NCBI GenBank assembly: GCA_031835245.2
Contig: JAVKOQ020000047.1
Span: forward strand, 186,001 to 250,000
DNA: 64,000 nucleotides
Direction of reading: 5' to 3'
DNA from: Balamuthia mandrillaris
Lineage: Eukaryota
Both the position numbers and the translations under genes were made by a program. The notes beneath the pieces were generated by a model. That model was not told the DNA's origin, did not search any database, and saw only the letters and a list, made by a program, of their open reading frames with translations. The number at the start of each line of letters is the position of its first letter. Within the stretch, counting starts at the first letter, position 1. Below, piece by piece: positions 18,539 to 64,000 of the stretch.

Positions 18539-18926
18539 CGTGTGTGTGAGAGTGATCTTCTGCTTTGCCGCTACTCTCTTTTCTCTCTTCTTTCACTTCT
18601 TTTCGTCTATTTGTTGTTTACCGGTGACCCCTCCGCCAAGGGACGCAAATTTTTGTTGGCAAGAATTCTTCCATGTCGACGTTTAATATGGCTTCTTTGG
18701 GTGTGCGGCATGTCGACAAAATATCTAAGGTGGTTACCGAAGTGAACCGCCTTAAATTTGAACCAATCAAATTCGTCCATTATAGAATTGGCTCTTTGAT
18801 TTGATTTTTATTATCGGACAACCCAGAGAGAAGAAAAAGCCGTTATTTTCTTCTTTATCAAACCAAAAGCTCCGACAACACTAACCACACACACACACAC
18901 ACTTGGTCTTCCCTTTAAACAACCCA

Positions 18927-20339
18927 ATGGCTCACGTACTCGCCGGCTCGAACGACTTGGAAAAGCTGGAGGACCTCTCCAGCAAGACCTACAAGGAACA
19001 GGCCATTTGGTTCCTCAATGCCTTTTGGGACAAGCACAAGGAGGAGGCGGAGCGCCTGTGGAAGTTCAAGCACCAGTGCGACGAGCTGGACCACGCCAAA
19101 AAGTCCGAGGGCTGCGCGCTGGACGAGCTGCAGGCCCACCGCTTCTTGGAGAAGTTCCAAGAGACCATGACCGTTCAGTCCATGAGAGACAAGCTGCGGT
19201 CCACAGGAGCCATCGGTGCCAAGGTCAAGCTGGTCCCCTTGATCCACATCCTCATCATCCGTTTCAACGTGGACTGGCATGAGCTGGTCAATGCTCCCCA
19301 AGGCAGCAAGGAGGAGATCGACAGAGCCCAAAAGCTGTTTGACGAGGTGCAGGCCGCTTTCCAAGAGGCCGAGGCCCGCGCAGAGGAAGCCGCTGCTGCC
19401 TTGAAGGAAGCTCAGGCAAGAGAGGCTGCTGCCAAGGCCAGAGAAGCCGACGCTCTCGCTCGCGAGGCGGATGCCAAGGCGAGAGAGGCGGAAGCCAAGG
19501 AGAGAGAGGCGGAGGCCATTGCCAGGGAGCAAGAGGCCAAGGCCAGAGAGGCGGAAGCCATTCAGAGAGAGGCCGATGCCAAGGCCAGAGAAGCCGACGC
19601 TCGTGCCAACGAGGCCAAGGCCAAGGAGCAGGAGGCCGAGGCAGTGGCCAAGGAGGAGGAGCTGAGGGCAGCCAAGGAGGAGCAGGAAGCGGCGTTGGCG
19701 GAGGTGAAGGCCCAAGAGGATGCCTACAACAACAAGACGGCAGAGCTGAAGAGAGCCAGCGAGGAAGGCGGTTTGGTCTCTCGCAACAAGGCCAAGAACG
19801 AGCTGGCCCAACACTTGCAGGAGGACCCTCTCCCCTTGCGTCGTGCCAAGATCACCCTGGAGGCTGCTGTGAAGAAGGCTGAGAAGGCTGCTCAGATCGC
19901 TGCTGATGCTCGCTCTGCTGCCGAGGCCTCCGCCAGAGAGGCCGAAGCCTCCAGAGCCGCCGCTGAGAAGTCGGCAAGAGAGGCGGAGCAAGCTCGTGCC
20001 GCTGCCCAAGCCGCCGCTCGTGAGGCCGAAAGGGCTCGCGCCAGCGCCGAGGCAGCTGCTCGCGAGGCCGAGGAAGCCAGAGCCGTCGCCGAGCAAGCCG
20101 CTCGCGAGGCCGAGCAAGCCCGCGCCGAAGCGGAGGAGGCCAGGAGACACTCGGAGAGGGCCAAGGAGGCGGCCGAGGCTGCCTTGGAGGAGGCCAAGCG
20201 GAAGCTGGAGGAGGCGGAGGCCTATCTGGAGGAGGCCAAGAAGACCCTGCCCGAGGGCCAGATCTGGTGGATGGAAAGAGAGCTGCACGAGAGGAGGGCC
20301 TACTTGCCGCAAAGCAAGGGAGGCTTCCGCCGAAACTAA
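18927..20339 (+). CDS. ABP34-like actin-bundling-protein homolog with Ala/Glu coiled-coil inserts (often annotated TolA-like), copy 1
   Basis: KEQAIWFLNAFW, EEIDRAQKLFDEV, NELAQHLQEDPLPLRRAKITLEAAV and GQIWWMEREL resemble, from memory, motifs of Dictyostelium 34-kDa actin-bundling protein. Intronless. Confidence 0.8.
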   Translation: MAHVLAGSNDLEKLEDLSSKTYKEQAIWFLNAFWDKHKEEAERLWKFKHQCDELDHAKKSEGCALDELQAHRFLEKFQETMTVQSMRDKLRSTGAIGAKVKLVPLIHILIIRFNVDWHELVNAPQGSKEEIDRAQKLFDEVQAAFQEAEARAEEAAAALKEAQAREAAAKAREADALAREADAKAREAEAKEREAEAIAREQEAKAREAEAIQREADAKAREADARANEAKAKEQEAEAVAKEEELRAAKEEQEAALAEVKAQEDAYNNKTAELKRASEEGGLVSRNKAKNELAQHLQEDPLPLRRAKITLEAAVKKAEKAAQIAADARSAAEASAREAEASRAAAEKSAREAEQARAAAQAAAREAERARASAEAAAREAEEARAVAEQAAREAEQARAEAEEARRHSERAKEAAEAALEEAKRKLEEAEAYLEEAKKTLPEGQIWWMERELHERRAYLPQSKGGFRRN

Positions 20340-26319: not shown

Positions 26320-26547
26320 TTTGCTTTTTCTCTTTTTTTTTTTTCAAACCATTCAGGACGACATGAATCTAAAAATCGAGACGACCCGAGTAGTCTTTTG
26401 CCAAAATTTTTAAGAGGGTTCATTTTAAGGTGATTGCAATTTCGCACAATCGATCTACCCCTCAGCCCCGTTTTTGGTTTTTTTTTCGTTCTCGTCAAAC
26501 TATTGCCAACATAACAACAACACCAGCTACACTACAGCAACCCCCCC

Positions 26548-27801
26548 ATGGCACACACGTTGAACGGCTCGAACGACTTGGAGAAGCTGGAGGACCTCTC
26601 CAGCAAGACCTACAAGGAACAGGCCGTGTGGTTCCTCAATGCCTTCTGGGAGGACTTTGCCAAAGATGAGGCGGAGCGCCTGTGGAAGTTCAAGCACCAG
26701 TGCGACGAGCTGGACCACGCCAAGAAGGCCCAGGGCTGCGCTCTGGACGAGCTGCAGGCCCACCGCTTCCTCGAAAAATTCAACGAGACCATGACCGTCC
26801 AGTCCATGAGAGACAAGCTGCGGTCCACAGGAGCCATCGGTGCCAAGGTCAAGCTGGTCCCCTTGATCCACATCCTCATCATCCGCTTCAACGTGGACTG
26901 GCACACCCTGGTCAACGCCCCCCAAGGTAGCAAGGAGGAGATCGCCAAGGCTCAACAGCTGTTGGACGAAGTGCAGGCCGCCTTCCAGGAGGCCGAGGCC
27001 CGTGCAGAGGAGGCCGCTGCTGCCTTGAAGGAAGCTCAGGCAAGAGAAGCTGACGCCAAAGCCCGAGAGGCGGACGCCAAGGCCAGAGAAGCCGAGGCCA
27101 AGGCCGCTGAGGCCGATGCCAAGGCCAGAGAAGCCGAAGCTCACTCCCGCGCGGAGGAGGCCAAAGCCACCGAGGCTGAGGCAGTGGCCAAGGAGGAGGA
27201 GCTGAGGGCAGCCAAGGAGGAGCAGGAAGCGGCGTTGGCGGAGGTGAAGGCTCAAGAGGATGCCTACAACAACAAGACGGCAGAGCTGAAGAGAGCCAGC
27301 GAGGAAGGCGGTTTGGTCTCTCGCAACAAGGCCAAGAACGAGCTGGCCCAACACTTGCAGGAGGACCCTCTTCCCTTGCGTCGTGCCAAGATCACTCTGG
27401 AGGCTGCTGTGAAGAAGGCTGAGAAGGCTGCTCAGATCGCTGCTGATGCTCGCTCTGCTGCTGAGGAGTCAGCCAGGCAGGCCGAGGCTGCTGCCCAACA
27501 AGCCAGCAGCGCTAGAGCAGCTGCCGAACAAGCCGCCCGACAGGCAGAGCAAGCCAGAGCCCAGGCCGAGCAGGCCAGAGCGCAAGCAGAGCAGGCCAGG
27601 CAACACTCGGAGAGGGCCAAGGAAGCAGCTGAGGAAGCGTTGGAGGAGGCCAAGAGGAAAGTGGAGGAGGCAGAGGCGTACTTGCAGGAGGTGAAGGCTC
27701 GTCTGCCGCAGGGAGCCATCTGGTGGATGGAAAGGGAGTTGCACGAGGCGAGGGCGTATTTGCCCAAGAGCAAGGGTGGTTACAACAAGAACGAGAAGTA
27801 A
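26548..27801 (+). CDS. ABP34-like coiled-coil protein, copy 2
   Basis: 417 aa intronless ORF with the same motifs as copy 1 (QAVWFLNAFW, QGAIWWMEREL). Confidence 0.8.
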   Translation: MAHTLNGSNDLEKLEDLSSKTYKEQAVWFLNAFWEDFAKDEAERLWKFKHQCDELDHAKKAQGCALDELQAHRFLEKFNETMTVQSMRDKLRSTGAIGAKVKLVPLIHILIIRFNVDWHTLVNAPQGSKEEIAKAQQLLDEVQAAFQEAEARAEEAAAALKEAQAREADAKAREADAKAREAEAKAAEADAKAREAEAHSRAEEAKATEAEAVAKEEELRAAKEEQEAALAEVKAQEDAYNNKTAELKRASEEGGLVSRNKAKNELAQHLQEDPLPLRRAKITLEAAVKKAEKAAQIAADARSAAEESARQAEAAAQQASSARAAAEQAARQAEQARAQAEQARAQAEQARQHSERAKEAAEEALEEAKRKVEEAEAYLQEVKARLPQGAIWWMERELHEARAYLPKSKGGYNKNEK

Positions 27802-28034: not shown

Positions 28035-28257
28035 CTCTCTCTCTTTCTCGCCTACCTTCCACTAGTCCTCACCGCTGTCCTCTCCTTGTGTGCACCCATA
28101 TGAAAATGAACCCTCAATGGAATTCTTTTATTGCGGTGCTTCTCCGCTGCCCCCTTTTTGTTTTTTTTTGCCGCATTCACACTCGGCACTACGCAAAACG
28201 TAACACCCGCACAACAGCAACGCGCTCGCTACCGGCAAAAACGACAACAAAAACACA

Positions 28258-29469
28258 ATGGCTCAAGTGCTGAACGGCTCGAACGACTTGGAGAAGCTGG
28301 AGGACCTCTCCAGCAAGACCTACAAGGAACAGGCCGTGTGGTTCCTCAATGCCTTTTGGGAGGACTTTGCCAAGGAGGAGGCGGAGCGCCTGTGGAAGTT
28401 CAAGCACCAGTGCGACGAGCTGGACCACGCCAAGAAGGCCCAGGGTTGCGCTCTGGACGAGCTGCAGGCCCACCGCTTCCTCGAAAAATTCAACGAGACC
28501 ATGACCGTCCAGTCCATGAGAGACAAGCTGCGGTCCACAGGAGCCATCGGTGCCAAGGTCAAGCTGGTCCCCTTGATCCACATTCTCATCATCCGCTTCA
28601 ACGTGGACTGGCACACCCTGGTCAATGCTCCCCAAGGCAGCAAGGAGGAGATCGCCAAGGCTCAACAGCTGTTGGACGAAGTGCAGGCCGCCTTCCAGGA
28701 GTCTGAGGCCAGAGCCGCTGAGGCCGCCGCTGCCTTGAAGGAGGCTAAAGCAAGAGAGGCGGACGCCAAGGCCAGGGAAGCCGAGGCCAAGGCCGCTGAG
28801 GCCGACGCCAAGGCCAGAGAAGCGGAAGCCCACTCCCGCGCGGAGGAGGCCAAAGCCACCGAGGCTGAGGCAGTGGCCAAGGAGGAGGAGCTGAGAGCGG
28901 CCAAGGAGGAGCAGGAAGCGGCGTTGGCGGAGGTGAAGGCTCAAGAGGATGCCTACAACAACAAGACGGCAGAGCTGAAGAGAGCCAGCGAGGAAGGCGG
29001 TTTGGTCTCTCGCAACAAGGCCAAGAACGAGCTGGCCCAACACTTGCAGGAGGACCCTCTCCCCTTGCGTCGTGCCAAGATCACCCTGGAGGCTGCTGTG
29101 AAGAAGGCTGAGAAGGCTGCTCAGATCGCTGCTGATGCTCGCTCTGCTGCCGAGGAGTCAGCCAGGCAGGCCGAGGCTGCTGCCCAACAAGCTAGCAGCG
29201 CCCGCGCCGCCGCGGAGCAAGCCGCCAGGCAAGCCGAGCAAGCCAGAGCGCAAGCAGAGCAGGCCAGGCAACACTCGGAGAGGGCCAAGGAAGCAGCTGA
29301 GGAAGCGTTGGAGGAGGCCAAGAGGAAAGTGGAGGAGGCAGAGGCGTACTTGCAGGAAGTGAAGGCTCGTCTGCCGCAGGGAGCCATCTGGTGGATGGAA
29401 AGGGAGTTGCATGAGGCGAGGGCGTATTTGCCCAAGAGCAAGGGTGGTTACAACAAGAACGAGAAGTAA
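28258..29469 (+). CDS. ABP34-like coiled-coil protein, copy 3 (tandem with copy 2)
   Basis: 403 aa intronless ORF, nearly identical to copy 2 but two heptads shorter. Confidence 0.8.
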   Translation: MAQVLNGSNDLEKLEDLSSKTYKEQAVWFLNAFWEDFAKEEAERLWKFKHQCDELDHAKKAQGCALDELQAHRFLEKFNETMTVQSMRDKLRSTGAIGAKVKLVPLIHILIIRFNVDWHTLVNAPQGSKEEIAKAQQLLDEVQAAFQESEARAAEAAAALKEAKAREADAKAREAEAKAAEADAKAREAEAHSRAEEAKATEAEAVAKEEELRAAKEEQEAALAEVKAQEDAYNNKTAELKRASEEGGLVSRNKAKNELAQHLQEDPLPLRRAKITLEAAVKKAEKAAQIAADARSAAEESARQAEAAAQQASSARAAAEQAARQAEQARAQAEQARQHSERAKEAAEEALEEAKRKVEEAEAYLQEVKARLPQGAIWWMERELHEARAYLPKSKGGYNKNEK

Positions 29470-50201: not shown

Positions 50202-51740
50202 TTACTTGTCGACGCCTCCCTTGGCCTTGGGCAAATACTTCCTTCGTTCCTGCAACTCCCTGTCCAACCACCAGATGGCACCCTGGGGCAGGGTGTTCTT
50301 GGCTTCCTCCAAGTAGGCTTCTGCCTCTTCAAGCTTCTTCCTGGCCTCCTCCAAGGCAGCCTCAGCAGCTTCCTTGGCCCTCTCAGAGTTCTCTCTGGCT
50401 CGCTCGGCGTCAGCCCTGGCCTGCTCGGCCTCTGCTCTGGCTTGCTCTGCCTCTCTGGCAGCCTGCTCAGCAGCAGCTCTGGCCTGCTCTGCTTCTCTGG
50501 CAGCCTGTTCGGCAACAGCTCTGGCTTCCTCGGCCTCGCGAGCAGCAGCTTGGGCGGCGGCGCGAGCCTTTTCAGCCTCACGAGCAGCAGCTTGAGCAGC
50601 GGCACGAGCTTGCTCCGCCTCTCTTGCCGACTTCTCGGCAGCAGCTCTGGATGCCTCAGCTTCTCTAGCAGACGCTTCGGCAGCGGCTCTGGCCTCAGCA
50701 GCAGCCTGAGCAGCCCTTTCAGCCTTCTTCACAGCAGCCTCCAGGGTGATCTTGGCACGACGCAAGGGGAGAGGGTCCTCCTGCAAGTGTTGGGCCAGCT
50801 CGTTCTTGGCCTTGTTGCGAGAGACCAAACCACCTTCCTCGCTGGCTCTCTTCAGCTCTGCCGTCTTGTTGTTGTAGGCATCCTCCTGGGCCTTCACCTC
50901 TGCCAACGCTGCTTCCTGCTCCTCCTTGGCCGCCCTCAGCTCCTCCTCCTTGGCCACTGCCTCGGCCTCCTGCTCCTTGGCCTTGGCCTCGTTGGCACGA
51001 GCGTCGGCTTCTCTGGCCTTGGCATCGGCCTCTCTCTGAATGGCTTCCGCCTCTCTGGCCTTGGCCTCCTGCTCCCTGGCAATGGCCTCCGCCTCTCTCT
51101 CCTTGGCTTCCGCCTCCCTCGCCTTGGCATCCGCCTCGCGAGCGAGAGCGTCAGCCTCCCTTTGCTTAGCATCGGCCTCGGCGGCCAAAGCTTCAGCTTC
51201 AGCGGCCTTGGCGTCAGCTTCTCTGGCTTTGGCGTCGGCCTCTCTCGCTTGAGCTTCCTTCAAGGCAGCAGCGGCCTCCTCTGCGCGGGCCTCGGACTCC
51301 TGGAAAGCGGCCTGCACCTCATCCAACAACCTTTGGGCCTTATCAATCTCCTCCTTGCTGCCTTGGGGAGCGTTGACCAGCTCATGCCAGTCCACATTGA
51401 AGCGGATGATGAGGATGTGGATCAAGGGGACCAGCTTGACCTTGGCACCGATGGCTCCCGTCGAGCGCAATTTCTCTCTCATGGTTTGAACGGTCATGGT
51501 CTCTTGGAACTTCTCCAAGAAGCGGTGGGCCTGCAGCTCGTCCAGCGCATTTCCTTCGGACTTTTTGCCGTGGTCCAACTCGTCGCACTGGTGCTTGTAC
51601 TGCCACAGGCGCTCCGCGTTATCCTTTCCGTGTTCCTCCCAGAAGGAGTTCAGGAACCAAATGACCTGTTCCTTGTAGGTCTTGCTGGAGAGGTCCTCCA
51701 GCTTTTCCAAGTCGTTCGAACCTTGCAAAACCAGTGTCAT
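50202..51740 (-). CDS. ABP34-like coiled-coil protein, copy 4 (longest)
   Basis: 512 aa intronless ORF with QVIWFLNSFW and QGAIWWLDREL. Confidence 0.8.
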   Translation of the reverse strand: MTLVLQGSNDLEKLEDLSSKTYKEQVIWFLNSFWEEHGKDNAERLWQYKHQCDELDHGKKSEGNALDELQAHRFLEKFQETMTVQTMREKLRSTGAIGAKVKLVPLIHILIIRFNVDWHELVNAPQGSKEEIDKAQRLLDEVQAAFQESEARAEEAAAALKEAQAREADAKAREADAKAAEAEALAAEADAKQREADALAREADAKAREAEAKEREAEAIAREQEAKAREAEAIQREADAKAREADARANEAKAKEQEAEAVAKEEELRAAKEEQEAALAEVKAQEDAYNNKTAELKRASEEGGLVSRNKAKNELAQHLQEDPLPLRRAKITLEAAVKKAERAAQAAAEARAAAEASAREAEASRAAAEKSAREAEQARAAAQAAAREAEKARAAAQAAAREAEEARAVAEQAAREAEQARAAAEQAAREAEQARAEAEQARADAERARENSERAKEAAEAALEEARKKLEEAEAYLEEAKNTLPQGAIWWLDRELQERRKYLPKAKGGVDK

Positions 51741-52197
51741 TCTACAGGAGTTTGAGCGGAAGTAGCTAGCACGAGTGTCGGTGTGTGAAGTTGTTTTAAA
51801 ATTTGAACAATAATAAAAATAATAAGATTTGATTTTAAAAATTGGCGAATAAGTTGGCAGGAAGGACGCCGCCTCTAACGTAGTGGAGAAGAAAGCGAGA
51901 AAATGGACGGTTATTATTCTTTCGGGAGGTGAGCTCGGTTACCGTTACCTTTGAAGCTTGCTACACCGAGCGCAACGCTCTTGTTGTCCATCCAGCTAAG
52001 CAGGACCGACCGCCAAGATAGGTTGGACAGGGCCGGTGTCCGGCCATTTGATCTCATATATCCTAGCTTATATTGCCAGAGACCCCTCAAGCCCGAACTT
52101 TTGGCTTTTTGGCCGTCACTCTCTCCCCTTCTATTTTAGCGCAAATCATACAAGACTCAAGAAACGCACAGAAGAGAAGCGGGCTACGAAGTTAGAG

Positions 52198-53535
52198 ATG
52201 GCACAAGTGTTAACGGGAGCGAACGATTTGGAGAAGTTGGAGCAGCTGGCCACCAAGACCTACAAGGAACAGGCCGTGTGGTTCCTCAATGCCTTCTGGG
52301 AGGACTTTGCCAAGGAGGAGGCGGAGAGGTTGTGGAAGTTCAAGCACCAGTGCGACGAGCTGGACCACGCCAAGAAGGCCCAGGGCTGCGCTCTGGACGA
52401 GCTGCAGGCTCACCGCTTCTTGGAGAAGTTCCAAGAGACCATGACCGTCCAGTCCATGAGAGACAAGCTGCGGTCCACAGGAGCCATCGGTGCCAAGGTC
52501 AAGCTGGTCCCCTTGATCCACATCCTCATCATCCGCTTCACCGTGGACTGGCACACCCTGGTCAATGCCCCCCAAGGCAGCAAGGAGGAGATCGCCAAGG
52601 CTCAACAGCTGTTGGACGAAGTGCAGGCCGCCTTCCAGGAGGCCGAGGCCCGCGCAGAGGAGGCTGCTGCTGCCTTGAAGGAAGCTCAGGCCCGGGAGGC
52701 TGATGCCAAAGCCAGAGAAGCTGATGCCAAGGCCAGGGAAGCCGAGGCCAAGGCCGCTGAGGCCGACGCCAAAGCACGAGAAGCCGAAGCTCACTCTCGT
52801 GCTGAAGAAGCTGCGGCTAGAGCGGAGGAGGCTAAGGGGAGGGAAGCCGAAGCCAAGGAACGAGAAGCTGAGGCGGCAGCCAGGGAGGAGGAGCTGAGAG
52901 CGGCCAAGGAGGAGCAGGAAGCAGCGTTGGCGGAGGTGAAGGCCCAAGAGGATGCCTACAACAACAAGACGGCAGAGCTGAAGAGAGCCAGCGAGGAAGG
53001 CGGTTTGGTCTCTCGCAACAAGGCCAAGAACGAGCTGGCCCAGCACTTGCAGGAGGACCCTCTCCCCTTGCGTCGTGCCAAGATCACCCTGGAGGCGGCT
53101 GTGAAGAAGGCCGAAAGGGCTGCTCAGGCTGCTGCTGAGGCCAGAGCCGCTGCCGAAGAGTCTGCTAGACAAGCCGCTCAAGCCAGAGCGAACGCCGAAG
53201 AGTCAGCCAGGCAGGCTGCCGCTGCTGCAGAGGAGGCTAGTAGGGCCCGCGCCGCCGCGGAACAAGCCGCCCGACAGGCAGAGCAAGCCAGAGCCCAGGC
53301 AGAGCAGGCCAGAGCGCAAGCAGAGCAGGCCAGGCAAAACTCAGAGAGGGCCAAGGAAGCGGCTGAGGAAGCGTTAGAGGAGGCCAAGAGGAAAGTGGAG
53401 GAAGCGGAGGCGTACTTGGAAGAAGCAAAGGCTCGTCTGCCACAGGGAGCCATCTGGTGGATGGAAAGGGAGTTGCATGAGGCGAGGGCGTATTTGCCCA
53501 AGAGCAAGGGTGGTTACAACAAAAACGAGAAGTAA
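52198..53535 (+). CDS. ABP34-like coiled-coil protein, copy 5 (head-to-head with copy 4)
   Basis: Starts MAQVLTGANDLEKLE; same core and C-terminus as copies 2 and 3. Confidence 0.8.
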   Translation: MAQVLTGANDLEKLEQLATKTYKEQAVWFLNAFWEDFAKEEAERLWKFKHQCDELDHAKKAQGCALDELQAHRFLEKFQETMTVQSMRDKLRSTGAIGAKVKLVPLIHILIIRFTVDWHTLVNAPQGSKEEIAKAQQLLDEVQAAFQEAEARAEEAAAALKEAQAREADAKAREADAKAREAEAKAAEADAKAREAEAHSRAEEAAARAEEAKGREAEAKEREAEAAAREEELRAAKEEQEAALAEVKAQEDAYNNKTAELKRASEEGGLVSRNKAKNELAQHLQEDPLPLRRAKITLEAAVKKAERAAQAAAEARAAAEESARQAAQARANAEESARQAAAAAEEASRARAAAEQAARQAEQARAQAEQARAQAEQARQNSERAKEAAEEALEEAKRKVEEAEAYLEEAKARLPQGAIWWMERELHEARAYLPKSKGGYNKNEK

Positions 53536-58477: not shown

Positions 58478-58599
58478 CCTTTTCACTTCTGCCTACTTTC
58501 TTTTTTCTTTCTTTGTATCTTCTTCATTGCCGACTTCCTTTGTCTCCTTCAGTGAAAAAACAATAGTTGGTGCCGAAACGCTGGCGGTAAGAGACCTCC

Positions 58600-58930
58600 C
58601 TTGTGGCACAAAGACTTTAGTGGGGGTTGCACCACACACTGGTAACCAGCTTTGGCTGCTCATTCACATGTCTTCTTGTTCCATGGCAGGCGAAGCGACA
58701 TGCCACTATCAACCCCACCAGGTCGTCCTTCCACATGGTAATGGTCTCACACACTTCAACATTTACAATGGCCAGCATGGCTGCAACATCCCCATGGGAG
58801 TGCAGGCATGGGACGTGTTGCCTTGCTGCCTTTATTATGTGCCACTATCAGTTGTACACAAAACAGGTAATCATGCTCCAAAGTTCACCTCACTTCTCCT
58901 GACCAGGAGCTCTGGTGGCAGATCATGATG
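58600..58930 (-). pseudogene. Decayed ankyrin-repeat gene fragment
   Basis: Minus strand reads LPWGCCSHAGH and LPWNKKTCE*AAKAGYQCVVQ, resembling PW..TC..AA..GH ankyrin repeats, with stops and frameshifts. CpG-poor and TG/CA-rich. Confidence 0.5.
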
Positions 58931-59833
58931 ATAAAAGCATCATCATCACCATTGTCCTCTTTCATGGTGTGTGCCTTCTTTGCTTGCTTTTTCGCAGCTA
59001 AGTTCTTTTATTACCTCCAGCTGGCCTTCTCCAGTAGCAATGGCACAAGGCATTTTGTCCAGGGAGTAGTAATTAAGAAGGGACCACTGCAGTAACAGTT
59101 CTTTTCAGCTCCTTTTTCTTCTGCTGTTTTGCAATCCTTGTTTGCCGGACAAGTATAAGGTATATCATAAACATAGATACATCCAAAGGAAGAACAACAC
59201 TTGAAGTATTTGCTATAACAAACAGTTTGGTATTTCATGAAGTTGTAACAAAGTTATTGAGGTGCGAAAATGCGGAACCAAGGGAACCTGCTTGGTTCCC
59301 TGGTTCCATAGCAAAAATTTCAGACTTAGAAAAAATTTCAACGTTCTCTAAGCCAAAATGATTGAAAAAAGGGAAAATTGATGTTTATTAATAAAAAAAA
59401 GGAATACCATGCTTTTGTTTGAAAAAATAAAAAAGGTTCTTGTAGAACTCAACATGCTCTATCCAATGAGCTTATTTACAAAGAGTAAAAATATTTTATG
59501 ACTGAGTAATTAATTTTATACATGATTTTGTATTTTAAAAATAATAGAAAATATTTGTGAAACTGACTGACAAATGGATAGATAAATAGATAAATAAATG
59601 AATAAATGAATGTTTAAAAAGTGTTTCATTAATATTGAATGAATGAATAAACAAGGGAAAAAAAATGTTCCACAACATAAAAAAACAAAACCTTGCAAAA
59701 ACAAACAACAATTAAATCAAAACAACAACTTAAAAACAAAATAAAAATTCTTCATTCTTTCCTAAACTATCATTGTTGTTGTTGCATAAATATAGCTCTA
59801 CTATCATTATTATAAAAATGATGATGATAATAA

Positions 59834-61034
59834 TTAAAATAATAATGGATCCTTTAAATTATTCCAATACTTTATAATCAAGCGTTGAGGTAATTCTTTT
59901 TCTTGTTTCCACATAGGATGATTTGCTCCTTTCCATTTGACTTGATATAAAACAACTTTGCTATCCAACTTATCATCATCACCAATTATTTGTTCCCATT
60001 TATGATCCAATATTTCTTCTACTACATCCATTATCTCTGTTGTCATTATTGCTTCATTTTCATTTTCATCCAACAATAAGTTTGTCTCAGAATATTTATC
60101 ATCATCATCATCATCATTATCATTCATAAATGTAAGTCTTCTAAGTCTTTTATATCTTCTTTTTGAAACTTGATCTGCTACTATTGATTGAAATAAAAAT
60201 TTATATTAATTAAAAATAAAGAAAATAACTAGAAAAAGAAAGTACTGTTTTACCACTCTCCCATAATACCTATCCCTATCTCTCCTTGTATATATATTTC
60301 TTTCTTTCATTCTATTAAAGGTCTTTTTCCCTACGCCCATCGAGTTGGTGTCCGTTAGGCTATTCCCCTACCGGCCTTATCACAGTACCTTTGTCTTCTT
60401 CATTTTCTTCAAATTGCTGTTGTAACTCTTGAAGTACATCAGATTCTTCTTGTGTTTCTTTTTGTTTTTCATCATCATCATCATCATCATCAATCTCACT
60501 ACTATCTTCCAAAAATAATGAAACTATATCATCATAAGTAGATTGCCATTCTTCTTCTTCTTCTTCTTCTTCTTCTTCTTCTTTTTCTCCATCATCCTTA
60601 ATATCATCTTTTATTTCTTTTTCTTTTTCTTCTTCGTCTTCTTCTTCTTCATGATTACACCACCAATTTGGATCTTTTATCTTCAAGTTTTGTTGAATAA
60701 CAAGTCGCATACGATTCACAATTTTTCTACCTAACTGATGATCCTTTTGAGCTAGCTGATACTTTGGTATAATGTGTATTATGAGTATCAAAACTATGAA
60801 GCATAGCTCGAGCTAACTTGATTCTAACTTCTTCTGGAACTGAAAGATCTCTAGCAGTCAGTACTTGCAATAATGCATCGACTTTTACCAGGAGTAATGC
60901 CAAAAACTCCAGTTCTTTCTTGTAGTTTTATGGACATACGATGTCCAAGTTTAGTATGTGGTTGACCAGAAGAATTACAAAAAAAGAAGTTGGTTTGTGG
61001 ATTCAGCTGTGATCTGATATATAACTCATAATCA
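59834..61034 (-). pseudogene. 5'-truncated, frameshifted tyrosine-recombinase C-terminus + acidic linker + chromodomain gene (mobile-element remnant)
   Basis: DYELYIRSQLNPQTNFFFCNSSGQP..ITPGKSRCIIAST / ARDL..KLARAMLHSFDTHNTHYT / KYQLAQK..., one intron, then VEEILDHKW..YQVKWKG...W..EKEL..LIIKYW. Strongly AT-rich. Confidence 0.7.
60246..60384. mobile_element. 139-bp solo-LTR-like insertion with 4-bp target-site duplication
   Basis: Begins TGT, ends ACA, flanked by GTAC at 60242-60245 and 60385-60388; internal TATATA and ATTAAA. Confidence 0.65.
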
Positions 61035-61048
61035 GGTTAGGGTTAGGG
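61035..61048 (+). repeat. Short telomere-type repeat GGTTAGGGTTAGGG
   Basis: Seen directly, at the breakpoint of the truncated recombinase remnant. Confidence 0.75.
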
Positions 61049-61180
61049 GCGGGTACTCAGAACCTACGGCATTCAACTCCCCATGGTCCATTCTATAAAA
61101 CTCTAAGTCTATAAGTCTAACGGATAAAGTGGGTCAAAGTAGCAATTTTTTCAATTTTCGTATAGGAATACCTATATAAT

Positions 61181-62324
61181 CTAACAAGATATAATCATAA
61201 TATCATCATCATCATCATCATCATCATTCTCCTCTGTCTCTTCCTCTTCATCCAAGATGGATATAACTGTAGTGGTAGTAAAAGTAGGAGATGATGATGG
61301 GGAGGAAGTGTTGTCATTATCATCATCATCATCCGATTTGTCAAAGTCCTCATCATGGGCCACCAAGTATTTGGCCTTCAAAGCGTCCAGATTGTTGGAG
61401 AATTCTGTGAGGAGATTGCGCCATTTATCATAGCAATCATTGTTGGTTCGACGTTGGGTAGGCAAGTGTTTGGCAATCTCCAACCAAGACCATCCATCAC
61501 GCAAGCGCCAAGTGACAACTCTACGGATTTCTGGTGCCTGCCAAGCGATCCGTTGTCGATGGCCATTCTTCTGATATTTGAGTCGATTGGATAACAATTG
61601 TTGTCGCTGAAGCGCTCTGCGAACTCGTTGTCGTCGTGGTGTTTGTTTTTTTGAGTCAGGACTCTTGTCATCATCATCATCAGCATCGAGAGAAGCAAGG
61701 GAGGAGGATGATTGCTCTTGACGAGGGGTGAGGAATGCTTTGTGAATGGGTGATCCGTTGACCAACTTGGGAAGTACAGGAGCTACAAACTCATCCACCA
61801 GCTCATTCAAGCCACTGAAAAAGCTTTGCAGAATGCCAGAGATGTGTTGACGGCACAGCTGGCGATGAATATTGGGCCAACGAAGAGGAGATTTGTTTTT
61901 GGCCTCATAGGTGGCTGCAGCTTCAGCTAGCACATCCTTATCAAACTCATCTGGATGATTTTCTACCCAAGCGGTACAACATTCAAGCCACAAGGAGCGA
62001 TAAAATCGTATTTGTTGATCTTTGGTTGGCAAATCTGTTCGTTTCATGAACCACCTAAAGAAGCAGTGTAAAAGAAGAAGAAGAAAGAAAGAGAAAGTGA
62101 GAGAAAGAAAGAGGAAAAGAAAGAAAAAGGGAAAAGAGACAAAAAACAAAGTGTGAGTGAATGTTAAAAGAAGAACAAATGAACTAAGACCAATTATAAC
62201 AATTATTGTTTAGACTATGAATGTTGCTGCTGTCACAATAAACCTGTGCGTTCTAGCTGAGCGCTAGGTCTAAGGGTGCATTTTTGAATGCAAGCAAGCA
62301 AACAAACAAGCTAAAAACTGACTG

Positions 62325-62365
<41 letters not shown>

Positions 62366-63497
62366 TGGTGATGGTGGTGGATACTATGCAAACAAAACAA
62401 ACAAACAAACACAAACAAACAAACCGTTGGCGAACAGCATGAATAAAACTCTGATAGTTGGTATCTGCAGACCAGTTGGATTGTTGCAAAGCATCTGAGG
62501 ATAGATTGTGAAATGCTTCTTTGGTAACTAGCTCTGGAGCAATAACTGTATGTATGCAAGGGAGTGAGAATGAAAAGAACCAAAAAGAGAGCAAGTCAGT
62601 CCATCAAGTGATAGTGGTGGTGGTGGTGGTGATGGTGGTGGTGGTGGTGGTTTATTGACGCTGGTCAGGCAGCCAGCCCAGCCAAAGAAAAAACAAAAGA
62701 AAAAACAAAACTCAGACGAGCAGTAACGAACCACAATGTCGAGGAGGATGATAATCAGCAGTGGTAGTTGCAACAGAGGATGAAGATAATGAAGAAGAAG
62801 AAGAAGAAGAAGAATGAGGATGAGTGGTGGTAACATTGCTGACCAAGCGATTGGCCACAATAGCACGTTTTAATGTATCCTTGACGTAGACTTGCTGGGA
62901 TCTACCACGAGGTACCCAACCTGCGATAAGGGCAGTAGTATCCAGTACATTGTTCTGACTGTGACCTTCCTGCAGTCCCTCCAAGATCAAGGCAGTGCAA
63001 AGGAAGCCAGCACGCAAGGAGTGAAAGGAAAACAATCCTTCAGGATAACCAGCCCGAACAGCCCGATCTTGCAACTTGGCATTTAAAGTATCGCGTGACC
63101 ATCCCCATAATGATGTTTGTTTTTGTTTGTCTGTCAAGCGCCAGTTGTGAAACTCGCGCAAATCCAAACCATGCTTGCATAACAGATGCTTGTTTAACCA
63201 GTAAATAAAATCTCCAAGACAAATGCTTGGTGTTGATGTTGTTGATGTGGTGGCAGCAGGGGTGGTGACAGCAGCGGTCCTAAGTGGTGATGATGGTGAT
63301 GGTGATGGTGAAGAAGATGATCCTCGTGATGATGATGATGATGGTAGTGGTGGTGGTGGTGTTAAATAACCTTCAAATGTAACGATATGATTCCAATGAT
63401 TTGGTATTCCTTTAGTGACTTGTTGGCACAATGAAAGGAAATAAAGAGGAGGAGCAGAAAATGTATCCTCTTGGTGATGGCAGCTGATGTTGTCATT

Positions 63498-63551
<54 letters not shown>

Positions 63552-64000
63552 GAAAGAGGAGGATGAAAGTTTAGGTCGAAATGCCACAATATCACCCAAA
63601 CGAATGTTTGCAGCTGTAATGGCTCTGGCACCAGTACAAACACTGTGTAACCAACAACTGGCTTCAGCAGCTTTGCTCACCAGTCCATCTGGAGTGGATG
63701 CGATAATATGTAAGACATCATCTAACAAATATGCGTCTTTGCACAATTGTTTGCTAGAACAGGAGGGTTTGGCTCTTTTGCAATGTCGAATGGCCTGTTT
63801 GACTTGATCTTTGATGGCATCCATTTGGTTTTTTAGCAACAACAAGTAAGCATGGTCTGAGGTTGTTGTCAATGCTGTAGTGCGTCCTGTCGCTCCTGTT
63901 GTTGCTGCTCGAGTGACACCATCACCAAGAAGGGTTCTGGATAAAGGAGAAGGTGGGAAAGAAGTGGTACATGATGATGATGCTGGAGTTGAAGAGATCA
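61181..64000 (-). CDS. Tyrosine recombinase fused by splicing to a C-terminal telobox-type Myb domain (5' end outside window)
   Basis: Catalytic set TGAR / VTKG / HSLR / AGW / QVY. Exons >64000-62732, 62545-62425 and 62054-61181 join in phase (1, then 2). Myb RIAWQAPE...WLEIAKHL..RTNNDCYDKWRNL. Confidence 0.82.

What the first reader, a model, noticed from the sequence alone, without database searches (positions are those of the whole stretch)
59834..61034. Second, decayed tyrosine recombinase fused to a chromodomain
Seen: the minus strand encodes a YR-like C-terminal half (Y-IR...FF-N--G-P...ITPGKSR...LARAMLHSFDTHNTHY). It is broken by a 4-bp ACTG duplication near 60855-60863 and a +1 shift near 60762, then continues through an acidic linker and an intron into a chromodomain. 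It is AT-rich and unlike the adjacent YR-Myb in motif style (MxHS..Y versus AGW..Y). Known: chromodomains steer chromoviral integrases to heterochromatin. Inference: a distinct YR element family with chromatin-reader targeting, so two YR families with different targeting modules are nested here.
Basis: partly seen in the sequence, partly recalled or inferred. Interest (0 to 1): 0.72.

Follow-up and report, generated by a model that had tools for sequence, protein, structure and literature searches.

The report
Dead amoeba recombinase gene with chromodomain
This is a broken copy of a repeated amoeba gene that likely encodes a DNA cut-and-rejoin enzyme fused to a chromodomain, a pairing already described in fungal Starship transposons, and its chromodomain lacks two of the three residues used to read methylated histones.

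Summary
Mostly confirmed. The window is very likely Balamuthia mandrillaris DNA. The stretch is the 3' half of a divergent tyrosine recombinase (YR) gene, followed by an acidic linker, a predicted intron and a chromodomain. Four uninterrupted B. mandrillaris gene models (46-71% identical in the YR part) have the same order of parts. YR evidence is modest but convergent: R, K, R, H and Y align, with Gly in place of the HxxR His.

Corrections: both breaks are 4-bp duplications, absent from other copies. 143 of the 208 'intron' bases are a solo-LTR-like insert with its target duplication. The chromodomain keeps one of three cage aromatics, so heterochromatin reading is unsupported. YR plus C-terminal chromodomain is already described for the Starship captain Kirc.

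The copy is cut at 61034 by the TTAGGG-bearing end of the unrelated YR-Myb element; whether the rest lies beyond 64000 is untestable here. Best reading: dead copy of a multicopy Crypton-like element (0.6). A sequence look-up of earlier scan notes found no look-alike; only other YR fusions by words. New variant of a known kind; interest 0.4.

The parts
61035..61183 (.). End of the neighbouring YR-Myb element, beginning with two TTAGGG units (61037-61048); it cuts the YR-chromo gene inside the catalytic domain
   Evidence: (contigs of other copies end their match at 61032-61034; five other joints lead to 61034-61051)
60863..61034 (-). YR catalytic domain, piece A, with Gly (60889) at the HxxR His position and the second Arg (60880)
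   Evidence: 46% to P0008 149-204; positions; alignment
60855..60862 (.). 4-bp tandem duplication, first frameshift
   Evidence: left out in contigs of X1 (part), X3 and X4
60754..60858 (-). YR piece B with the second His (60798) and the nucleophile Tyr (60771)
   Evidence: 71% to P0008 206-239
60750..60757 (.). 4-bp tandem duplication, second frameshift
   Evidence: left out in X3 and X4, present in the X1 contig
60389..60752 (-). Last YR helix and acidic linker, up to the predicted splice donor
   Evidence: 31% to P0008 239-331
60181..60388 (-). Predicted phase-1 intron (208 nt; 65 nt without the insert); alternative in-frame acceptors at 60178 and 60175
   Evidence: not shown by RNA
60246..60384 (+). 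Solo-LTR-like insert, 139 bp, TG..CA, with GTAC duplicated at 60242-60245 and 60385-60388; very high copy
   Evidence: joint skipping 143 bases in X1, X3, X4; many unlike flanks; RNA reads run on into a sequence starting like a primer-binding site; LTR identity and strand inferred
59834..60180 (-). Last exon: basic patch (NLS-like, inferred), acidic stretch and chromodomain (about 59846-60031), with stop codon
   Evidence: 34% to P0008 331-428, E 6e-12
59141..59833 (.). AT-rich repeated 3' region with a 34-bp hairpin at 59274-59307; other copies continue past 59141 with a shared different sequence
   Evidence: whether all of it belongs to this element is not shown

Best explanation
This is a dead, 5'-truncated copy of a multicopy Balamuthia gene that likely encodes a tyrosine recombinase with a C-terminal chromodomain and likely belongs to a Crypton-like DNA transposon. 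Shown: order of parts, multicopy state, the breaks, the chromodomain fold and the missing cage. Inferred: an intact protein (core-binding domain, catalytic domain, acidic linker, basic patch, chromodomain) would cut and rejoin the element's ends through a phosphotyrosine intermediate, excise it as a circle and integrate it elsewhere, as proposed for Cryptons. Inferred: the chromodomain would tether the enzyme to chromatin or to a partner protein by a surface other than a methyl-lysine cage, like group II or shadow chromodomains. This copy then took an LTR insertion at its splice donor, two 4-bp duplications, and truncation by the YR-Myb element.
For: P0008 is the only hit at E<=0.001 among 1.84 billion representatives (E 2.2e-5) and tiles the window in four collinear pieces. 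Four gene models on four contigs are 99.2-99.8% identical over their shared YR-to-chromo part and all end in the chromodomain. YR evidence: hhalign against 24 bacterial YR domains scores 26.0 over 170 columns, 0 of 120 column shuffles reach it (max 19.7); MAFFT puts R94, K125, R199, H225, Y234 on the catalytic columns; ESM Atlas gives a Phage_integrase cluster at 0.95 (29% of members carry the family); Pfam Phage_int_SAM_5 matches P0009 167-230 just upstream (E 0.0015, 19.3 bits, cut-off 22.3). Chromodomain: pLDDT 75-87, SUV39H1 chromodomain Z 8.1, rmsd 1.6 over 53 residues. Contigs over the YR part are about 8-12 times deeper than the host-flank contig in X1 and X4 (the tool warns that depth is not copy number).
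Against: No Pfam, PHROG or NCBIfam catalytic-YR hit for the paralogues. hhalign probability is only 12% (E 0.0024), and the window's own pieces alone are reached by 3 of 80 shuffles. The HxxR His is Gly, so activity is not assured. The unseeded model of the YR part is unusable (pLDDT <50); the seeded model is circular. No element ends, empty site or upstream DNA were seen, so 'transposon' rests on copy number, AT richness and strain differences. The four gene models could partly be redundant haplotypes. No listed contig piece spans this subfamily's YR part and chromodomain exon together.
Confidence: 0.6

Rival explanations
1. The gene is the integrase of a larger element whose other genes lie upstream and are lost here: a DIRS/Ngaro-type retrotransposon, a Polinton-like endogenous virus, or a cargo-carrying Starship-like element.
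For: Low GC against the host, typical of endogenous viral elements (PMC10120064 passages). The best Atlas clusters for both domains include virus-rich ones. One X3 contig runs about 2 kb upstream of 61034, and what lies further is unseen.
Against: The paralogue's 629-aa model accounts for roughly that upstream length with core-binding domain and N-terminus (inference). A spliceosomal intron is predicted, whereas the cited survey treats endogenous viruses as intronless. No relative in IMG/VR or JGI metagenome scans, which find close relatives only.
Confidence: 0.25
2. The family is a domesticated or immobile recombinase-derived gene family spread by segmental duplication; the Gly at the HxxR position marks loss of recombination and the protein is a chromatin factor.
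For: Gly replaces the His in both subfamilies. Cryptons were repeatedly domesticated (PMC3212892 abstract). The frameshifted form is itself in a deep contig in X1, which segmental duplication could give.
Against: Domesticated DUF3504 genes lose Tyr and the second Arg, while both are kept here. The host-flank contig is shallow where the element is deep. No orthologue outside B. mandrillaris.
Confidence: 0.11
3. The YR-like piece and the chromodomain exon are unrelated neighbours, joined only by gene prediction.
For: The intron and the paralogue proteins are predictions; no RNA shows the splice; no contig piece of this subfamily spans both parts.
Against: A subfamily only 31-71% identical keeps the same order, the basic patch and the same last residues; the intron is in frame, and the third acceptor gives the same six-residue spacing as the paralogue (count made by hand for the window).
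Confidence: 0.04

Closest known systems
Starship captain Kirc (Enterprise, Podospora; Vogan et al. 2021, PMC8092012, section 7 read)
   Same: YR with core-binding domain at the N-terminus and a predicted chromodomain at the C-terminus; the authors propose the same targeting idea.
   Different: Kirc is a fungal DUF3435 protein with a zinc finger and a canonical pentad. Here: no DUF3435 match, an acidic linker without zinc finger, Gly at the HxxR His, an amoeba host, and no cargo seen. Independent acquisition is likely but not shown by a tree.
Crypton DNA transposons (Kojima and Jurka 2011, PMC3212892; abstract, sections 3 and 5, passages)
   Same: Eukaryotic multicopy YR gene, no terminal inverted repeats seen, C-terminal accessory domain (GCR1_C, HTH or C48 in the described groups).
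   Different: No chromodomain or amoebozoan host in the parts read; element ends and phylogenetic group untested here.
Group II and shadow chromodomains of chromovirus integrases (PMC3350952, passages)
   Same: C-terminal chromodomain on an integrating enzyme that keeps only the middle cage aromatic.
   Different: Those sit on DDE integrases of LTR retrotransposons; their ligand is described there as poorly known.

Membership tests
Tyrosine recombinase superfamily | Catalytic Arg, Lys, second Arg, His/Trp and nucleophile Tyr in order and spacing | tested here: met
   P0008 R94, K125, R199, H225, Y234; the window keeps the last three; the first two are lost by truncation
Tyrosine recombinase superfamily | His of HxxR | tested here: inconclusive
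   Gly in both subfamilies. The position varies in accepted members (YxxR in Starship clades 1 and 3), but Gly has no side chain
Tyrosine recombinase superfamily | Profile similarity of catalytic and core-binding domains | tested here: met
   Weak but convergent: 0 of 120 shuffles, Atlas 0.95, Phage_int_SAM_5 E 0.0015 below cut-off
Tyrosine recombinase superfamily | YR fold | tested here: inconclusive
   Unseeded model pLDDT <50. Model seeded with 24 bacterial YRs: pLDDT 77, best matches XerH/XerA/Cre, TM about 0.5, E>=0.003; circular
Crypton | Dispersed multicopy element | tested here: met
   Four near-identical paralogue models on four contigs; deep contigs over shallow host flank
Crypton | YR is the only enzyme (no RT, no DDE transposase) | not testable with these tools
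   No whole genome held; upstream DNA not readable
Crypton | 4-6 bp direct repeats at both ends, no long terminal repeats | not testable with these tools
   5' end lost at 61034; other copies continue past 59141
Crypton | Placement in CryptonF, S, A or I by YR phylogeny | not tested
   No Crypton reference sequences were fetched
Starship captain | DUF3435 domain | tested here: not met
   No DUF3435 row for P0008 (E<=1) or P0009, P0028 (E<=10)
Starship captain | Large cargo-bearing element with captain at the 5' end | not testable with these tools
   Here the gene is followed by about 700 bp of repeat, then host-like DNA; other copies unseen
Chromodomain | Three-strand plus helix chromo fold | tested here: met
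   Paralogue model: chromodomains fill the list, E>=0.04; Z 8.1; window exon 47% identical in A2, Pfam E 0.01
Methyl-lysine-reading (HP1-type) chromodomain | Three-residue aromatic cage (Y24, W45, Y48 of HP1) | tested here: not met
   Asp/Trp/Ala in the window, Lys/Tyr/Glu in P0008; the listed variants in other copies do not add an aromatic (148 further variant rows were not shown)
DIRS/Ngaro retrotransposon or Polinton-like virus | RT/RNase H, or capsid and polymerase genes, in the same element | not testable with these tools
   None in the 59141-61034 remnant; upstream part unseen

The most novel reading that the evidence does not exclude
B. mandrillaris carries two unrelated YR transposon families that each gained their own targeting module, a cage-less chromodomain and a telomere-type Myb domain with TTAGGG at the element end, and the YR-Myb element preferentially inserts into YR-chromo elements as a parasite of a parasite. 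In one search, five joints besides this one link the YR-Myb end to different places within 59141-61034.
Probability: 0.2. Interest if true: 0.65.

Novelty: new variant of a known kind. Interest (0 to 1): 0.4.

Why it matters
If it holds, it is a second, probably independent, joining of a tyrosine recombinase to a chromodomain, outside fungi, and one without the methyl-lysine cage. That makes a compact natural test of what cage-less chromodomains on integrating enzymes bind. It also names an unannotated repeat family in a genome whose transposons a recent preprint calls not yet thoroughly annotated. The copy in the window is itself dead and shows no new mechanism.

Tried and rejected
No whole genome held, so no genome-wide tBLASTn. 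Word-based protein search with piece A: 0 of 10 candidates scored. P0009 230-460: 2 of 805 candidates, both B. mandrillaris (lengths 345-1101 only). IMG/VR scans: one 11-residue match taken as chance (its record has no match to P0008 or PF00589), none for P0008, A3 or P0006. Metagenome scan: none of 69 candidates. Phage tblastn: none. PDB sequence search with P0008: nothing relevant. My first YR profile held two wrong-strand rows; I discard its scores (hmmsearch 13 and 49 of 1000 shuffles reached the observed score; hhalign 31.3) and use the corrected 24-row profile, which scores lower (26.0). No RNA holder listed; of 57 RNA reads laid from about 3% of run X21, none lay on the YR or chromodomain exons: no evidence on expression. 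Programmed frameshifting rejected: other copies lack both duplications. A window-only assembly error is unlikely for 60750 because an X1 contig has it, but X1 may be the window's source. No sequence consensus at the YR-Myb joint sites by eye. Literature: 0 papers hold 'Balamuthia' with 'tyrosine recombinase'; searches gave no amoebozoan YR-chromodomain element in the listings and passages I read (most listed papers were seen as listings only; no supplements read; subscription journals and Repbase are not covered).

Full report
Host and setting. The neighbouring YR-Myb reading frame is 90% identical to a Balamuthia mandrillaris protein, and 5 of its 7 hits are from that species, so the window is very likely from it. 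No whole genome was held. The stretch 59141-61034 is AT-rich (26-35% GC by part, apart from the 12% intron remnant and the 42% insert) between 44-47% GC neighbours.

Observation. A HMMER search of 1.84 billion representatives with piece A returned one protein, P0008 (B. mandrillaris QOT17_015880, 429 aa, E 2.2e-5). P0008 aligns to four collinear pieces: 61030-60863 (46%), 60855-60754 (71%), 60752-60396 (31%) and 60175-59840 (34%). The frame changes at two tandem 4-bp duplications, 60855-60862 and 60750-60757, the only two such duplications in 60666-61034 (0.94 expected by chance, so their count alone means little). What matters is that contigs of other runs leave out exactly four bases at both places (X3 and X4 at both; X1 partly at 60855, not at 60750). 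Other copies of this subfamily therefore lack these two breaks.

The intron. A GT donor at 60388 and three acceptors three bases apart (60181, 60178, 60175) all keep the frame. Most of the gap is not ancestral intron: 60246-60384 is a 139-bp TG..CA sequence flanked by GTAC on both sides. DNA contigs of X1, X3 and X4 skip it, it has many unlike flanks, its depth is tens of thousands in X1 and X4, and RNA reads run on from it into a sequence beginning with TGG after two bases, like a primer-binding site. I read it as a solo LTR (inference). Without it the intron is 65-71 nt. No RNA read shows the splice.

Is it a YR? The family libraries give no catalytic-domain hit. Four weaker lines agree. hhalign of P0008 30-262 plus window pieces against 24 bacterial YR domains gives score 26.0, probability 12%, E 0.0024, 170 columns; 0 of 120 column shuffles reach it; the window's pieces alone are reached by 3 of 80. 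MAFFT puts R94, K125, G196, R199, H225, Y234 on the R-K-H-R-H-Y columns. The ESM Atlas lists two chordate clusters and a virus-rich cluster without family and a Phage_integrase cluster at 0.95-0.96. The longer model P0009 matches the integrase SAM-like core-binding profile just upstream (E 0.0015, under cut-off). Structure does not add independent proof: the unseeded model is unusable there and the seeded one (pLDDT 77, matches to XerH, XerA, Cre) is circular. I put YR ancestry at about 0.9 and retained activity of intact copies at about 0.6.

The chromodomain. The fold is well supported on the paralogue (pLDDT 75-87; Foldseek list filled by chromodomains; SUV39H1 Z 8.1, rmsd 1.6 over 53) and weakly on the window's own exon (Pfam E 0.01; cpSRP43 and Polycomb E 0.03-0.16; Atlas 0.88). 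The cage is Asp/Trp/Ala here and Lys/Tyr/Glu in P0008. PMC3350952 (passages) describes this pattern for shadow and group II chromodomains, of unclear ligand.

Copy state. Four gene models (P0008, P0009, P0028, P0029) on four contigs are 99.2-99.8% identical over the shared part and all end in the chromodomain. They form a second subfamily; the window's own subfamily is not among annotated proteins found. Contigs over the window's YR part have depth 372-477 in X1 and 314 in X4, against 47 and 26 at the host flank.

Relation to YR-Myb. The two proteins show no BLASTP similarity (best E 1.9). The YR-chromo match stops at 61034, where the sequence turns to two TTAGGG units; an X3 contig continues about 2 kb upstream in other DNA. 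TTAGGG is this species' telomere repeat (10.1101/2025.02.25.640156, passages). Five further joints link 61034-61051 to 59222, 59660, 59853, 60274 and 60976, with short sides of 23-34 bases where given, which the tool says can come from repeats. This marks an element end and suggests repeated insertion into this family, or shared crowding in one compartment. True nesting cannot be seen, as the window ends inside YR-Myb.

Mechanism. Shown: anatomy, breaks, copies, fold, missing cage. Inferred from Cryptons (PMC3212892 section 3): excision as a circle and reintegration by the YR. Inferred: tethering by the chromodomain without a methyl cage. The origin of the two 4-bp duplications is unexplained; fill-in repair of 4-base staggered cuts would give them, and the local LTR family also duplicates 4 bases.

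What is known. Kirc, captain of the Starship Enterprise, has YR, core-binding domain, zinc finger and a C-terminal chromodomain (PMC8092012, passages and section 7), so the pairing is in print. Starship clades 1 and 3 carry YxxR (PMC11162782 section 20). YR retrotransposons inserting by preference into another element are known from Cafeteria (PMC8547959 passages). I recall chromodomains on some algal DIRS-like elements; one search did not confirm this. The name 'telobox' for the neighbour's Myb motif is also recalled. Other papers seen as passages only: PMC10120064, PMC12477816, PMC12506042, 10.64898/2026.05.21.726589. No supplements were read.

Verdict. Real feature, partly misdescribed; a dead copy of an unannotated amoeba YR-chromodomain family; works most likely like a Crypton, membership untested; not a Starship captain by Pfam. 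New variant of a known kind, interest 0.4.

Noticed in passing
61035-64000: The YR-Myb element ends in two TTAGGG units and its Myb domain resembles telomere-binding Myb motifs (recalled). It has many B. mandrillaris copies (one cluster of 17) and relatives in Monocercomonoides and an unnamed assembly.
   Followed up: partly
59274-59307: Near-perfect 34-bp hairpin with 14-bp arms (one bulge) and a 5-7 base centre, about 530 bp past the stop codon; could be a recombinase site or a Helitron-type terminal hairpin.
   Followed up: partly
60246-60384: Very high-copy 139-bp solo-LTR-like family with a 4-bp target duplication; here it landed on a splice donor and leaves the GT in place.
   Followed up: partly
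60165-60755: An X1 contig joins these two places (589 bases skipped, depth 306), perhaps an internally deleted derivative.
   Followed up: no
58500-59140: Host-like GC but all minus frames are broken by stops and one is Cys-rich; perhaps another decayed repeat.
   Followed up: no
18885-20339, 26515-27801, 28204-29469, 50202-51938, 52000-53535: Five copies of one gene family with a shared N-terminal domain and Ala/Glu-rich coiled-coil repeats of different length.
   Followed up: no
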